A DNA stretch of 64,000 bases from positions 1,536,001 through 1,600,000 of the forward strand of contig JASGHJ010000001.1 in the NCBI GenBank assembly GCA_047602405.1. Reading direction: 5' to 3'. The stretch comes from Anaeromyxobacteraceae bacterium (GTDB lineage Bacteria > Myxococcota > Myxococcia > Myxococcales > Anaeromyxobacteraceae). A program made the position numbers and the translations under genes. Below are positions 1 through 4,219 of the stretch, one piece after another. Numbering within the stretch: position 1 is the first letter of the stretch; every line of letters begins with the position of its first letter. The notes below the pieces were generated by a model. That model was not told the DNA's origin, made no database searches, and saw only the letters and a program-made list of their open reading frames with translations.

Positions 1-141
1 ATCCGGCTCGCCGCGTACGCGGAGCTGTCGGAGACCGCGCCGCCGCCGAGCGGGTACGACGCGGACTGGGACCTGCCGCGCCTGCAGCAGGCGACCGCGG
101 ACTGGGCGGCGTGGTGGGCGAGGTCGGGCCTCGTGATCTAA
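1..141 (+). CDS. 3' end of a hypothetical protein (partial, enters from left edge)
   Basis: Frame 1 is open from base 1 with GC-rich codons: IRLAAYAELSE...WAAWWARSGLVI, stop TAA at 139-141. The final A is the first base of the element TIR. Confidence 0.6.
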   Translation: MRLAAYAELSETAPPPSGYDADWDLPRLQQATADWAAWWARSGLVI

Positions 142-2075
142 GAGCTGTCCCATAATTCGCCAAGCGGCGAGTGGGGCAGTCCGGTTCGCCATCGGGCCCG
201 CTCGGACGTGGACTCTCGTGAGAGAGGCTCATCCCGGGTAGGGCCCGTGGCCGTTCCGGCGGTTCGCCGAGCCACCGGCGAAGAGGCCGGTGTGGACGTC
301 CGCCACGCGGGGCAACTGGCCTCGCGGACGAAGAGGTCGTTTGACTCGGACCGGGTGTCTTGCCACCCGAGCGGCAGGTAGGGAGTGAGGAGGCGCTGGA
401 GGTCGGGGCGGGACTCGCGCGCGGCGGCGTAGTCGACGCGCGCCGAAGCGGGTTCGCCGGGGAGGTCGAGCACGACGAAGCTCGCGAGCACCGCGGAGAC
501 GGCGTCGCGGTCACCTTCGAGGCCGCAGCGCGGACAGCGGTGGACCCGGACGGCGAGGGTCTTCGGTACGCGGGCGCCACAGGGGCAGCGCTGGGAGAGC
601 GTGGTCGTGCGGGTGGGGATCCGGACCACGCCTCCTCTGGCCTTGGCGACGGCTGCGACGGCCCGGGCCTCGCGGTCGATGGCCGAGACGAGCAGGCCCG
701 GCGTGAAAGCGGCGACGCCGCGGCCCCAGTGTCGCGCCCAGGCGGAGATGGGGCCTTCCTCGACGAAGACCTTGTAGCCGTGCGTGCGGACGACCTCCGC
801 GGCCACCCGCCGGGCACCGTCGCGCCGAGCCTGTGCAGCAGCGGCGGCGTCAGCGACCTCTTCCGCCCGGAGCCTCCGGTGACGACGGGTGAGCCGGTCG
901 CCGCGGTAGGCCTGGAGCGGAGCGCCATCGGACCTCGCGACCCTCGGCCCCTGGGGGATGACCTCCACGGGCGGGAGGCCCGCGGCGGCGCGCCGACGGG
1001 CGCGCTTCTCCTGCCGCTTGGACAGCCGGTACTGCTCGCTGTTGGCGACCCGGCGGGAGCGCTCCAGGGCTCGCTGCCTGCGACGCTCGCGGCGTCCCCG
1101 GCCACGGTCCCGCTCCTTCGTGGCCGCGTCGCGCTCGATCCGCGTGAGCCGAAGATCGCCTCCCGCCACCTGGGAGGCGACGGTCAGGTTCGACACGTTG
1201 ACATCCACTCCAGCCACGCGGCCGGGCTCGGCGAGGGCGACCTCCGCGCGGCGCGCCCTCGTCGCAGGGGAGACGTAGGGCTCCTTCAGCACCATCAGGT
1301 GGGCTTCGTAGCGCCAGCCGCCAGGTACGTGTGGCGCTCGGGTGCGGACGACATCGACCTTGTGCCAGAGGCTCGGGTCGGCGAGGTGGTAGTCGAGGAT
1401 GGGTTGGTTGCAGGGAGCCGTGGGGAGTCGAACCGGAAGCACCAGCGTGCCGTCGGCGAGCCCGCTGAACACGAGCACCAGCGGACCCTGGTAGGCCCAC
1501 CAGTCGACGCGCCCGCTCGGAGCCGACGCGACCTCACGACGACCGACGAGCGAGCCGTGGAGCCGGAAGGTCTCCCACTTCCGATCCTTCGTATGCGAGC
1601 GCGCGCGACCGGGCAGCCTCCTGAAGTCGAACCACCGCCCGACGTGGAGCAGCCCCTGGCGTTTCCCGGTCGCGTCCGGAAACAGGTGCCGCTCCACCGC
1701 CGACCAGACCGAATCGGCGAGGTGCATCGCGAGCGCCTTCGTGACGAAACGCCGGAGGTAAGGCGCCGCGTCGAGGCAGGCGTAGGCGGCGTGTTCGAGC
1801 GCGTCGCGGCTGAGGCCGAGCCGGTCGCGCGTGCCCGCGCCATCCCGGGCCCGTTCGTGCCTCGCCGCCCAGTAGGCCCGCGCACGGTTGCGGGCCGCCC
1901 GCTGCAACGCCCGCCGCACCCGGTACGCGTCGGCGAACATCCTCTCGAGCCGCCTGCGCTGCAGGGGATCGTGGACGTCGAGCGCGAGCCGCAGGACCGA
2001 CACGCCGTCCTCCGGGCGGCGCGCCCAGGGCTCCTGGCGGTTCGGACCGCGGGTCCGCTTGGCCTCGACTTCCAC
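138..2075 (-). CDS. tnpB: TnpB-like RNA-guided RuvC endonuclease (long form, 645 aa)
   Basis: RuvC-I AGVDVNV, Arg-rich helix, RuvC-II VFVEE, zinc ribbon SQRCPCG...CPRCG, RuvC-III DRDAVSA. The D/E/D triad is intact. Confidence 0.85.
   Translation of the reverse strand: MEVEAKRTRGPNRQEPWARRPEDGVSVLRLALDVHDPLQRRRLERMFADAYRVRRALQRAARNRARAYWAARHERARDGAGTRDRLGLSRDALEHAAYACLDAAPYLRRFVTKALAMHLADSVWSAVERHLFPDATGKRQGLLHVGRWFDFRRLPGRARSHTKDRKWETFRLHGSLVGRREVASAPSGRVDWWAYQGPLVLVFSGLADGTLVLPVRLPTAPCNQPILDYHLADPSLWHKVDVVRTRAPHVPGGWRYEAHLMVLKEPYVSPATRARRAEVALAEPGRVAGVDVNVSNLTVASQVAGGDLRLTRIERDAATKERDRGRGRRERRRQRALERSRRVANSEQYRLSKRQEKRARRRAAAGLPPVEVIPQGPRVARSDGAPLQAYRGDRLTRRHRRLRAEEVADAAAAAQARRDGARRVAAEVVRTHGYKVFVEEGPISAWARHWGRGVAAFTPGLLVSAIDREARAVAAVAKARGGVVRIPTRTTTLSQRCPCGARVPKTLAVRVHRCPRCGLEGDRDAVSAVLASFVVLDLPGEPASARVDYAAARESRPDLQRLLTPYLPLGWQDTRSESNDLFVREASCPAWRTSTPASSPVARRTAGTATGPTRDEPLSRESTSERARWRTGLPHSPLGELWDSS
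141..370 (-). ncRNA. Putative omegaRNA scaffold overlapping the tnpB 3' end
   Basis: Dense hairpins: 157-161/166-170, 193-199/241-247 enclosing 213-217/222-226, and 273-279/286-292. Lies between RuvC-III and the element end, where TnpB omegaRNAs are encoded. Boundaries approximate. Confidence 0.55.
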
Positions 2076-2081
2076 ATCTTC

Positions 2082-2114
2082 ACGCTACGCCAACCCCCTG
2101 ACAGGGCGTTCAGG
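2082..2114 (-). promoter_or_regulatory. Putative leaderless tnpB promoter with DNA-damage-type motifs
   Basis: TGTCAG(2103-2098)-N10-TAGCGT(2087-2082), 6 nt before the GTG start. Overlapping CTGACAGGGCGTTCAGG (2098-2114, + strand) resembles the Myxococcus LexA box. Confidence 0.5.
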
Positions 2115-2337
2115 TCCGGCCCTCGCGTGAACCGGGGCAACGCCCGAGATTTCACGATCCAGTAACCACGCATCCCCTGCCGACCCGCCGACTGCTCGTC
2201 CTCGCGGCCCTCTCCGGGCGCGACCTCGCTCGCTTCCGGCGCATGCTTCCCTCATCGCCGACGCGGCCGCCACCTCGCGGACACCGTGCCGCTGTCTCCG
2301 TCCCTCACAAGCTCAAGCGGGACTTATGGGACAGCTC

Positions 2338-3221
2338 TTAGGCGTGGGGGCCTTCCTTCGCCGCGGCGACCTCCCGCCAGCCGAGGATCCAGGTCAGCCT
2401 GTCCGGCGCGGAGCCGTAGACCCAGCCCCTCGTCTCCGCCGCCGCTAGGCGGCGGCTACGCTCGGGGCGTACGGACCCAGGGAATCCATCTCCGACCATC
2501 CCGAGCGTAGGCCCGCGGCAGCGGGCCGGAGTCGAGGGACGCCGACGCGTGAGCAGCCGGCCACCGTGCACTCGCCGCCGTCACGCACCATGATCGGGTG
2601 CGCGTTCTTCAGCTTCTCGTGCACGATCGGCGTCCAGACCTTCAGGCAGTGCCGCGCGATGGCCTCGATCGCGTCCGGGAGCGGGATCCACTGCCCCGCC
2701 GCCTTCCGGGCGGCCTGGACGGCCTCCGCGAGGAGGCCGTCGATCTCCTCGGTGACGAAGACGTCGAGGTAGTCCCTGTTCCACATCTGGCTGTGGAGCT
2801 CCGCCATCGTCTCCCGCTGGAGCGTGATGCAGGTCTTCCCGGCGGCCTCCTCGATCTTCGCGGCGACGTCCTCCGCCGTGGCGAGCTTCGAGACCAGCCG
2901 CGCCTGCTCGTAGGAGAGCTTCCCGGAGCGCATCGCCTCGCGGAGCTGCGGGAGCTCCTGGCACTTCTGCTCGAAGCGCACGAGCCGGCGCACGAAGGCG
3001 GCCTTGAGGCCCAGCTTCTCGCGCGCGAAGTCGGTGATCTGCGAGTAGCCGAGCTCGAGCTCGCCGGAGACGTCCATGAGCTCGCCGAGCTTCTGGCCGA
3101 TCGCGAGGTCGAGCGCGCCGCGATCGCGGGCGACGCGCACGGCGAGGGCGTCGAGCGCGACGAAGCCGCCGACGGGCGGGGTTTCGGAGCCGACCTCCGG
3201 ACTGGCGGAGCTCTCGACCAT
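2338..3221 (-). pseudogene. DUF222-like/HNH endonuclease with its HNH core replaced by REP-like repeats
   Basis: From ATG 3221: DUF222-like helical region, then RDGGECTVAGCSR, then REP sequence (2426-2541). The typical tail RGWVYGSAPDRLTWILG resumes in another frame and stops at 2338-2340. Confidence 0.7.
2426..2541. repeat. Inverted doublet of REP-like palindromic repeats
   Basis: 2426-2474 (reverse) and 2492-2541 (forward) match the consensus CCGTTCRTCCYGAGCGTAG-[hairpin]-CGGAGWCGAGGGACG. Confidence 0.85.
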
Positions 3222-3251
3222 GCTGCACGGGTGTACAGCGCGGGTCTGACA
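3222..3251 (-). promoter_or_regulatory. LexA-box-like operator/promoter of the DUF222/HNH gene
   Basis: CTGTACACCCGTGCAGC (3238-3222) abuts the ATG and matches CTRHAMRYBYGTTCAGS at 16/17. Also TGTCAG-N10-TACACC. Confidence 0.55.
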
Positions 3252-3316
3252 TTTTCGTTGGGGCGCAGCGACAACCCCATCTGGGACCCCGCCCGGCACT
3301 CACGGGCGCCGCCGGC

Positions 3317-3410
3317 TCACCCTCGCGCAGGCCCCTGCAGCCTGAGCACGTTCCCATCGAGGTCGGCGACGTACAGCTCCCGGACGCCCCAGGTCTGGTC
3401 CGGCCGCGGT
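3317..3410 (-). pseudogene. C-terminal remnant of a VOC/glyoxalase-bleomycin-resistance protein
   Basis: PDQTWGVRELYVADLDGNVLRL is a typical VOC C-terminal motif. No matching N-terminus upstream. Confidence 0.5.
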
Positions 3411-3476
3411 CCGCCGCCACCCGCCGCCACCCATCCGGCGACCGCCCCGGCACGCTGGCTGCACTTCGATGGCCCC

Positions 3477-3686
3477 ATGCTCGCACTCGCCGCCGACTCG
3501 CTCGCCATGCTCGGGGTCATCGCCGCCATCGCCGCGTCGTGGGCCGGCGCCATCGCGCTCGTCGCGCTCGCATATGCCTCCGCCACGACGGGCCTTCGCG
3601 TCGCGGTCGCGCGCGTGCGCCGGCCGCGGCTCGCGCGCGAGGCCGCTGCGTGGACCGCCGCGCCGGGCCTCGCCGCGGCGAAGTGA
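3477..3686 (+). CDS. Small hypothetical membrane protein
   Basis: MLALAADSLAMLGVIAAIAASWAGAIALVALAY forms one hydrophobic helix, followed by a basic tail. Confidence 0.45.
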   Translation: MLALAADSLAMLGVIAAIAASWAGAIALVALAYASATTGLRVAVARVRRPRLAREAAAWTAAPGLAAAK

Positions 3687-3773
3687 CACGACCCCGCGGG
3701 GCTCGCGGCTGAACGGAAACCGGGCGCGCCGGTGCCGCCGGATCGGGCAGCGGCCTGCTCGTGGACGGGGGCG

Positions 3774-3826
3774 CCCCTCGTCTCCGCCGTGGCCCGAGGC
3801 CACGGCCACGCTCGGGACGAACGGGG
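3774..3826 (-). repeat. REP-like palindromic repeat
   Basis: CCCCTCGTCTCCG-hairpin-CCACGCTCGGGACGAACGG. Confidence 0.8.
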
Positions 3827-3871
3827 AACGGCTACTTCTTCGGCACCGGCTCGTCGGTCGAGCGCGCCGCG

Positions 3872-4219
3872 CTACTTCGGAACGGGCTTCTCCGCCGCCG
3901 CCGGCGCCGGCAGCGTCGACTCCGGGTAGTTCACGGTCACGTCGAGCCACGTGAGCCCGTCCGTGCCCGCGCCGCCCGGCGCGAGGAACACCTTGTAGCG
4001 CCGGACCACGCCGCAGACGTCGAGGTCCTGCGTCGTGCCCCACGCGTCGGAGCGCAGCACGCGCACGCTCTGGACCGGGCAGCCGTGCTCGAACGCAGCC
4101 TGGTTCACGAGGATGGCCTGCGCGTGGCGGAAGTCGTGCCCGGCCATCGGCAGGTGGACGCAGGCGGCGCCGCCGAGGACGACGGCGGCGAGGAGGGCGA
4201 GGCGGAGCGGGGTGCGCAT
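3872..4219 (-). CDS. Putative lipoprotein
   Basis: Signal peptide MRTPLRLALLAAVVLGGAAC with lipobox Cys. GGAGG RBS upstream. Confidence 0.7.
   Translation of the reverse strand: MRTPLRLALLAAVVLGGAACVHLPMAGHDFRHAQAILVNQAAFEHGCPVQSVRVLRSDAWGTTQDLDVCGVVRRYKVFLAPGGAGTDGLTWLDVTVNYPESTLPAPAAAEKPVPK

What the first reader, a model, noticed from the sequence alone, without database searches (positions are those of the whole stretch)
138..2341. TnpB-like nuclease carried inside a transposase-less TIR element with a TA duplication
Seen: 15-bp perfect TIRs (18 bp counting the flanking CTA/TAG), TA on both sides, an empty site of CTAG, one large ORF with an intact RuvC D/E/D triad and Zn ribbon, and no transposase. 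Known: TnpB normally travels in IS200/IS605 (Y1) or IS607 (serine recombinase) elements, which lack TIRs and target duplications. TIR + TA-in-CTAG is the signature of DDE elements (IS630, some IS5 groups). Inference: a non-autonomous DDE-type element mobilised in trans, with an RNA-guided nuclease as sole cargo. This parallels Fanzors in TIR transposons. I cannot tell from sequence alone whether this clade is already described.
Basis: partly seen in the sequence, partly recalled or inferred. Interest (0 to 1): 0.9.

Follow-up and report, generated by a model that had tools for sequence, protein, structure and literature searches.

The report
TnpB riding an IS5-family transposon
This 2.2-kb jumping gene is a shortened copy of a widespread bacterial cut-and-paste element that carries a likely RNA-guided DNA cutter (TnpB); such pairings are already known from surveys, but here the predicted guide RNA and target signal can be read off and tested.

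Summary
In detail: 15-bp perfect TIRs, TA on both sides, and a 645-codon TnpB-like ORF with a conserved D/E/D triad. The element is not a purpose-built transposase-less shell. It is an internal-deletion derivative of a ~2.75-kb insertion sequence with a divergent IS5-family (DDE_Tnp_4, IS1373-like) transposase, not IS630. The genome holds six complete copies; two keep an intact transposase ORF, and the window copy keeps about 170 bp of it. Five empty alleles read a single CTAG, which shows TA duplication. Homologues in Myxococcota, Actinomycetota and metagenomes share the layout (right flank TAG in 69 of 70 ends). The last ~230 nt form a covarying RNA structure that overlaps the tnpB tail and ends at the TIR, the predicted omega RNA; predicted TAM is CTA(G). 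Both ORFs borrow the target's TAG as stop, and insertions often sit on host stop codons. DDE-linked TnpBs with inverted repeats, and solo copies moved in trans, are in print (Altae-Tran 2023; a 2026 review names ISL2). I found no experimental study of them. This scan noted what reads as the same family in other genomes (two earlier notes). New member of a known kind; cutting and expression untested.

The parts
1..141 (+). 3' end of a host gene. Its stop codon is the target: TAG in the empty allele, TAA in the filled one (TA plus the first TIR base).
   Evidence: 721 open codons with GC3 0.97 end at this TA; the orthologue in G010 ends ATC-TAG.
122..137 (-). Predicted guide: flank sequence read after the TAG on the tnpB strand. 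Its exact start (after T, TA or TAG) and length are inferred.
   Evidence: Conservation across 46 loci stops right after TAG; guide-from-flank rule taken from PMC13565253 passages. No RNA data.
138..140 (+). CTA, one half of the CTAG target with the duplicated TA; read as TAG on the minus strand it is the tnpB stop codon.
   Evidence: TAG follows 69 of 70 distinct right ends found without using the flank.
141..155 (+). Terminal inverted repeat downstream of tnpB (right end), AGAGCTGTCCCATAA.
   Evidence: Perfect match to 2324-2338; same end in the other genome copies.
141..368 (-). Predicted omega RNA scaffold, overlapping the last ~76 codons of tnpB and the right TIR. First hairpin at 353-368; its loop may pair with the last three element bases plus the first T of the duplication.
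   Evidence: Fourfold-site identity 0.78 versus 0.49 in the gene body; 30 of 46 RNAalifold pairs with two-sided changes; controls; fold z = -3.06; profile hit 141-368; hairpin position.
138..2075 (-). tnpB-like gene, 645 codons from a GTG (a catalogue record starts at residue 46). RuvC D291 at 1203-1205, E439 at 759-761, D524 at 504-506; zinc ribbon at 525-587.
   Evidence: PF07282 30.1 bits versus cut-off 26.3; NF040570 29.4 bits, below cut-off 100; a profile matches solved TnpB-type chains only over the C-terminal part.
2168..2338 (+). Remnant of the IS5-family transposase gene: about 28 codons of each end joined across a ~580-bp deletion near 2252-2256, and frameshifted in this copy.
   Evidence: This copy matches full-length copy E3 at E3 positions 1-87 and 670-2788 only; translation ends ...HKLKRDLWDSS at the flanking TAG, like the intact gene.
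2324..2338 (+). Terminal inverted repeat at the transposase end (left end).
2339..2341 (+). TAG, the other half of the target with the duplicated TA; it serves as the stop codon of the transposase frame.
   Evidence: CTA precedes 43 of 48 distinct left ends.

Best explanation
The window holds a deletion derivative of an IS5-family insertion sequence that has lost most of its transposase gene, is likely moved by the transposase of full-length sister copies, and carries a TnpB nuclease predicted to use a guide RNA made from the element's right end to cut the element-free version of its site. Step 1 (shown by sequence): the family inserts into CTAG and duplicates TA. Step 2 (inferred): the ~250-aa DDE transposase of copies E3/E5, or of a lost relative, acts on the shared TIRs in trans. 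Step 3 (structure supported by covariation, expression untested): a transcript running through the right TIR into the flank gives a ~230-nt scaffold plus a flank-derived guide. Step 4 (inferred): TnpB reads a CTA or CTAG motif next to the guide match. The empty allele offers C-TAG; the filled junction offers T-TAG because the last TIR base is T, so it would be spared. Step 5 (inferred from IS605/IS607): the cut is repaired from an element-bearing copy, which restores or spreads the element.
For: Six complete copies with different flanks, all CTA|element|TAG. Intact transposase ORFs in E3 and E5 inside near-identical TIRs, with D102, D172, E208 kept in 20, 19 and 20 of 20 elements. Five clean single-TA empty alleles among ten site pairs between G000 and G010. 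Same layout in metagenome and genome loci and on actinobacterial plasmids. Transposase and TnpB distances correlate (Spearman 0.60, 0 of 2000 permutations, 20 pairs). Catalytic triad conserved. Nucleotide-level constraint and covariation over the last ~230 nt. Last TIR base is T in 99% of 70 right ends while the base before the target TA is C in 91% of 46 left flanks. None of the six predicted targets occurs in the own genome.
Against: No expression, binding or cleavage data. The CTAG preference can be explained wholly by the transposase, so the TAM is not independently shown. Cut-and-paste excision may leave a footprint or a break rather than a clean CTAG, in which case restorative cutting gives little benefit (argued in PMC13565253 section 6.2). 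The correlation of the two genes falls to 0.31 (80 of 2000) without the three plasmid loci, and only 4 of 8 supported TnpB splits recur in the transposase tree. The three short copies are only about 85% identical to E3, so their own autonomous partner is not in this assembly. The protein scores below NCBIfam's TnpB cut-off, and its N-terminal 400 residues match no solved structure by sequence. Two of the ten orthologous sites read CTAC, two had diverged and one was not found.
Confidence: 0.7

Rival explanations
1. Same anatomy and RNA-guided cutting, but the benefit is a homing drive on naive alleles (incoming plasmids or chromosomal DNA that never held the element) rather than repair after the element's own excision.
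For: A naive allele always reads a clean CTAG, as the five empty sites do. Transposase-less copies keep intact tnpB and are numerous: about ten per genome in two Dactylosporangium genomes. Transposase-independent spread of IS605 on plasmids is described in PMC13565253. Relatives occur on plasmids.
Against: Not separable from the best explanation by sequence; the two can coexist. The G000 copies lie on megabase contigs, where naive alleles would arrive only by DNA transfer.
Confidence: 0.15
2. The protein binds RNA and DNA but does not cut in vivo; it acts as a regulator or helper of transposition, or silences flanking transcription.
For: The protein is long for a TnpB, with an arginine-rich insert between RuvC-I and RuvC-II. 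The first zinc knuckle is CxC, and the residue three places after D524 is S, A or T where solved TnpB chains have N.
Against: All three catalytic residues are kept in 26 of 27 rows spanning 29-73% identity to the query, which is hard to explain without catalysis.
Confidence: 0.1
3. The TIRs belong to an ordinary IS remnant into which an unrelated IS605/IS607-type tnpB element later inserted.
For: The TIR and transposase are of an ordinary IS5 type; TnpB-free relatives were not examined for their ends.
Against: The tnpB frame and the RNA scaffold run through the TIR itself (53 of 70 ends open from RuvC-III to the flanking TAG). The gene pair has the same order across two phyla. Conservation ends at the TIR plus TAG, with no inner boundary.
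Confidence: 0.02

Closest known systems
DDE-transposase-associated TnpB branches (six branches; DDE-2, -3, -5, -6 named in the text) of Altae-Tran et al. 2023, PNAS, PMC10691335 (passages, two parts of the main text and searched SI text read; Fig. 4, tables and additional files not seen). Kojima-type review PMC13565253 (section 6.2 and passages read) names the partners as ISL2, IS630 and IS1031.
   Same: TnpB beside a DDE transposase, inverted terminal repeats, tnpB 3' end close to the element end, solo tnpB copies within the same ends and inferred to move in trans.
   Different: The text describes only the IS630 branch (DDE-6) in detail; this family has an IS5-type transposase. Which numbered branch it is could not be checked. 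The text I saw does not give the CTAG target, the empty alleles, the RNA fold, the borrowed stop codons or a TAM for it.
IS200/IS605 and IS607 TnpB-omega RNA systems (restorative homing; PMC13565253 passages)
   Same: RuvC D/E/D with zinc ribbon, structured RNA overlapping the gene end and stopping at the element boundary, candidate terminal pseudoknot, flank-derived guide.
   Different: DDE transposase instead of HUH or serine recombinase; TIRs and a TA duplication; a protein of about 645 aa; scores far below the IS200 and IS607 TnpB cut-offs (15.1 of 425 and 27.1 of 350 bits).
IS5 family, IS1373-like elements (placement of IS1373 in the ISL2 group is recalled, not confirmed)
   Same: Single ~250-aa HTH plus DDE_Tnp_4/DDE_Tnp_1 transposase, short TIRs, 2-bp duplication; 48% identity over residues 43-184 to proteins annotated 'IS5-like element IS1373 family transposase'.
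   Different: About 2.75 kb long because of the tnpB and RNA cargo; scores below the NF033581 cut-off (47-63 of 140 bits).
Fanzors in eukaryotic TIR transposons (PMC13565253 sections 5.5 and 6.2, passages)
   Same: Large TnpB-type nuclease in a TIR element, with the 5' duplication expected in the TAM and the 3' duplication in the scaffold.
   Different: Bacterial; no tree was built against Fanzors, and nothing found here links the proteins. The review says Fanzor1 lacks the terminal pseudoknot, whereas this family has a candidate one.

Membership tests
TnpB/Cas12f superfamily | RuvC D-E-D triad | tested here: met
   D291, E439, D524 invariant in 36 of 36 and 26 of 27; E439 and D524 regions align to solved TnpB-type chains by profile.
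TnpB/Cas12f superfamily | TNB zinc ribbon between RuvC-II and RuvC-III | tested here: met
   PF07282 above cut-off; four cysteines in 25-26 of 27 rows; first knuckle is CxC.
TnpB/Cas12f superfamily | REC/WED fold in the N-terminal half | tested here: inconclusive
   No sequence match to solved chains there; no structure prediction was obtained; language-model neighbours are TnpB-type clusters at 0.96-0.98.
TnpB (OMEGA) system | Conserved structured RNA at the element's right end | tested here: met
   no Rfam family reached its threshold.
TnpB (OMEGA) system | RNA expressed and bound; guide- and TAM-dependent cleavage | not testable with these tools
   No usable RNA data; needs experiment.
IS200/IS605 or IS607 element | Y1 or serine TnpA, no TIR, no target duplication | tested here: not met
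   Partner is a DDE transposase; TIRs and TA duplication shown.
IS630-associated TnpB (DDE-6) | IS630-family transposase with separate HTH gene | tested here: not met
   None of the 11-12 Pfam or 5-6 NCBIfam families hit by the transposase is an IS630 model; best hits are DDE_Tnp_1, DDE_Tnp_4 and NF033581 IS5; single ORF.
IS5 family | DDE transposase of IS5/DDE_Tnp_4 type with intact triad | tested here: met
   Pfam DDE_Tnp_1 and DDE_Tnp_4 above cut-off; triad conserved; IS5-annotated relatives. NF033581 is the best NCBIfam hit but below its cut-off.
IS5 family | Short TIRs and short target duplication | tested here: met
   15-bp TIR; TA duplication from five empty alleles.
IS5 family, ISL2 group | Transposase clusters with ISL2-group references | tested here: inconclusive
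   Closest named relative is IS1373; its group is recalled; no ISfinder references were available for a tree.
A numbered DDE branch of Altae-Tran 2023 | Protein falls in one of the six DDE branches | not testable with these tools
   Fig. 4, Tables S1/S2 and Additional Files 10/11 were not readable; the SI text has no ISL2, IS1031, Anaeromyxobacter or Myxococc- string.
CRISPR Cas12 (type V) | CRISPR array beside the gene | tested here: not met
   The element ends at the TIR with variable flank directly after; no regular array among repeats of window 1-4000.

The most novel reading that the evidence does not exclude
This IS5-type family is an experimentally untouched, and possibly unlisted, case in which an RNA-guided nuclease is wired into a cut-and-paste transposon's ends: the duplicated target supplies both genes' stop codons, the last base pair of the guide RNA's pseudoknot and the TAM, and a single C-versus-T difference tells empty from filled sites. 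If TnpB cuts here, it is a bacterial parallel to Fanzor in the lineage related to PIF/Harbinger transposons, a direct test of whether restorative homing works for DDE elements, and a source of compact nucleases with a short CTA motif.
Probability: 0.25. Interest if true: 0.7.

Novelty: new member of a known kind. Interest (0 to 1): 0.42.

Why it matters
TnpB's role is established for scarless HUH and serine-recombinase elements. A 2026 review argues it should help cut-and-paste DDE elements less, and calls such cases rare in prokaryotes (PMC13565253). This family is large (1136 hits among 8000 candidates scored), recently mobile and spans two phyla. One genome supplies full-length and deleted copies, a relative supplies matching empty alleles, and the alignment gives an RNA model and a TAM prediction. 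That makes the open question testable with a few constructs. The pairing itself is not a surprise to a specialist.

Tried and rejected
Structure prediction gave no model, so no fold search or tree against Cas12/Fanzor references was made. Single-sequence PDB search found nothing relevant. Rfam on six loci gave three weak matches, all far below gathering score. No RNA holder listed; the one run offered was probably DNA, and its contigs cover scattered pieces at mostly 80-95% identity, so it says nothing on expression. No sigma-70 promoter or terminator consensus in 100-2500. My first chance control for the TIR (195 and 48 of 500) counted overlapping palindromes and was replaced. The end counts required CTA/TAG in the pattern and are circular, so only one search is used for target counts; there 15 of 98 loci gave no right-end core and 3 of 60 no usable left end. 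A loop pattern used the wrong interval and was redone. In one search I entered wrong coordinates for E6 and E7; they were corrected. Empty-site checks were uninformative for E2 and E3 (site diverged), E5 (no match) and the G001/G034 copies (too distant). IS630 as partner and an IS605 insertion inside a remnant were rejected as above. Literature searches found no experimental paper on IS5-linked TnpB; the library lacks most subscription papers. Searches did not confirm that IS1373 belongs to the ISL2 group.
Full report
Observation. The sequence at 138-2341 is as described. AGAGCTGTCCCATAA at 141-155 and its reverse complement at 2324-2338 pair perfectly for 15 bases, and for three more outward (CTA/TAG). 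In this 74% GC genome a 15-bp inverted repeat of any composition arises in 103 of 1000 resamples of the first 4 kb, an 18-bp one in 3 of 1000, and a 15-bp one at 60% GC or less in 0 of 1000. One frame of 645 codons runs from a GTG at 2075 to the TAG at 138-140 on the minus strand. It hits the TnpB zinc-ribbon model PF07282 above cut-off and NCBIfam TnpB models below cut-off. D291, E439 and D524 are invariant in 36 of 36 close homologues and present in 26 of 27 rows of a wider set. A profile of that set matches solved TnpB-type chains over the RuvC-II to RuvC-III stretch only (best E 3.4e-6).

The family in this genome. The assembly (6.16 Mb, probably an Anaeromyxobacter to judge by the nearest named hits) holds six complete copies and one lone right-end fragment, all bordered CTA...TAG with unrelated flanks. 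E1 (the window) and E2 are 2198 bp and differ at two positions. E4 is 2200 bp. E3 (2788 bp) and E5 (4482 bp, with an ISAs1 inserted between the genes) carry an open frame of at least 251 codons on the strand opposite tnpB; in E6 it is broken. That protein hits DDE_Tnp_1 and DDE_Tnp_4 above cut-off and HTH_Tnp_4 below; its best NCBIfam model is the IS5 model NF033581, below cut-off. No IS630 model is among the hits. On plasmids its named relatives are annotated IS5/IS1182 or IS5-like IS1373 transposase (163 records, 154 of them Streptomyces; 25 rows listed). E1, E2 and E4 match E3 at positions 1-87 (E4: 1-104) and from about 670 on, so they share a deletion of about 580 bp inside this gene. The window element is thus a deletion derivative, and two near-identical copies at different sites show that the derivative still moved.

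Target site. Close relative G010 lacks the window insertion and reads GTGATCTAG with one TA, then sequence homologous to the right flank after a short indel. E4 and E6 sites in G010, and two G010 insertion sites in G000, also read a single CTAG with both flanks contiguous. That is 5 of 10 site pairs; two read CTAC, two had diverged, one was not found. A contig of run X1 also joins window 140 to 2355; it has the same letters as G010 there and may not be independent. With ends located from inner TIR bases only, TAG follows 69 of 70 distinct right ends (83 of 98 loci gave a core) and CTA precedes 43 of 48 distinct left ends. No preference is seen further out.

Spread. Homologues number 1136 among 8000 candidates scored and 894 cluster representatives, 147 of them at E below 1e-30. 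They are patchy among relatives: 3 of 60 other genomes, all in the same genus. Of 118 loci analysed (some overlapping), most of those with enough upstream DNA show the same divergent transposase and lengths near 2.75 kb. Plasmids of Euzebya and mycobacteria have the same gene pair and a related 16-bp TIR in CTA...TAG. Two Dactylosporangium genomes hold about ten copies each, mostly 2.1-kb transposase-less forms with a diverged, imperfect TIR, again mostly in CTA...TAG; one copy is full-length with a transposase 47% identical to E3's. Transposase and TnpB distances correlate across 20 full-length elements (0.60; 0.31 and 80 of 2000 permutations without three plasmid loci), with 4 of 5 and 4 of 8 supported splits shared: long association, with some shuffling or noise.

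Guide RNA. In 53 of 70 distinct right ends the tnpB frame stays open from RuvC-III through the TIR to the flanking TAG; the rest are deleted, frameshifted or missed by my motif. Over codons 566-645 the three codon positions are equally conserved (0.69, 0.69, 0.70) and fourfold sites reach 0.78 identity, against 0.76, 0.80, 0.52 and 0.49 in the gene body (38 sequences). The tail is therefore constrained as nucleotides. An alignment of 46 right ends gives 46 consensus pairs, 30 with two-sided changes. With ten pairs that I added by eye, 94.9% of cells pair and 34 of 56 pairs show two-sided change, reached by 0 of 500 shuffles, against 32-42% for slid partners; the structure came from the same alignment, which favours it. 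Conservation stops after TAG. The first hairpin's loop AAGA can pair with the last three element bases plus the first T of the duplication: 60 of 66 ends have AAGA:TCTT, one has AAGG:CCTT, one a wobble, and four (two lineages) break one pair. The short Dactylosporangium elements have AAGG:CCTT. This is suggestive of the terminal pseudoknot of prokaryotic omega RNAs (PMC13565253), not proof.

Mechanism. Shown: insertion in CTAG with TA duplication, autonomous and deleted forms, a conserved triad and a conserved RNA fold. Inferred from IS605/IS607 and Fanzor: the guide comes from the right flank and the TAM is the left half of the target, CTA or CTAG. The last TIR base is T in 99% of right ends and the base before the target TA is C in 91% of left flanks, so a TAM reading that base would spare the filled allele. 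None of the six predicted targets is present in the own genome at up to one mismatch over 12 flank bases. The main doubt is whether DDE excision leaves a clean CTAG; if not, cutting would serve mainly to convert naive alleles.

A side feature. An open, coding-like frame ends exactly at the target TA in 36 of 60 right flanks and 14 of 35 left flanks, against at most 2 of 60 and 1 of 35 in shifted frames. All six G000 copies have such a frame on at least one side, against 570 of 1071 CTAG sites genome-wide. The first TIR base is A or G in 125 of 126 ends, so the host stop becomes TAA or stays TAG and the host protein is unchanged. Much of this follows from CTAG being rare (1073 observed, about 4700 expected) and concentrated at stop codons, plus selection against insertions inside genes.

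What is known. Altae-Tran et al. [quoted passage not shown] The 2026 review PMC13565253 (section 6.2 and passages) names the partners ISL2, IS630 and IS1031. An IS1373-like transposase fits the ISL2 case if my recollection of ISfinder's grouping is right. The figure, tables and additional files that would assign the branch were not readable, and they bear directly on novelty. PMC12730594 was seen only as passages for the link between IS5 groups and Harbinger/ISL2EU. Six searches found no experimental study of IS5-linked TnpB. Earlier notes of this scan describe what reads as the same family in two other genomes and IS630 cases in archaea; a look-up by sequence found none. I read them after my analysis and they changed nothing.

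Verdict. A real, recently mobile, well-defined element; a new member of a known kind, probably within a catalogued branch. Its value lies in being ready for test. Interest 0.42.

Noticed in passing
window 138-141 and flanks of homologous loci: Insertions often fall on host stop codons (36 of 60 right and 14 of 35 left flanks), and the purine first base of the TIR keeps the stop intact, so insertion is silent for the upstream protein.
   Followed up: partly
window 2350-3300: The right flank belongs to a different repeated unit: 87-92% identical stretches at two other places on C1 and a weaker one on C2, with a 284-codon ORF at 2445-3299 (-) that hits no Pfam or NCBIfam family but looks by eye like a DUF222/HNH-type repeat protein (recalled). 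G010 has a diverged homologue at the same place.
   Followed up: no
window about 2420-2475 and 2490-2545: Two ~50-bp sequences recur at dozens of places on both contigs, like REP-type intergenic repeats; one forms a short tandem array at C1:1893130-1893590.
   Followed up: no
L016:1299-2982 (G000 C2:798298-799981): An ISAs1-family element (NF033564 above cut-off) has inserted between the transposase and tnpB of copy E5; a 99.6% identical copy lies at C1:661275-662958.
   Followed up: partly
L160-L178 (G061, G062): Dactylosporangium genomes carry about ten transposase-less 2.1-kb copies each, with a diverged imperfect TIR; the transposase that moves these ends was not identified.
   Followed up: partly
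L044 (G000 C2:2661894-2662050); L043, L037, L031 (G001): Further decay products: a lone right-end fragment in G000, and 547-, 1041- and 1541-bp deletion forms with both TIRs in G001, i.e. MITE-like derivatives.
   Followed up: no
L011 about 3740-3890: A second small inverted-repeat unit bounded by CTAG lies directly against the left end of the tnpB element (seen by eye).
   Followed up: no
L052, L058, L068, L072, L078, L123 right ends: The predicted RNA tolerates hairpin extensions of 12-36 nt at one stem, all keeping the tnpB reading frame by eye.
   Followed up: no
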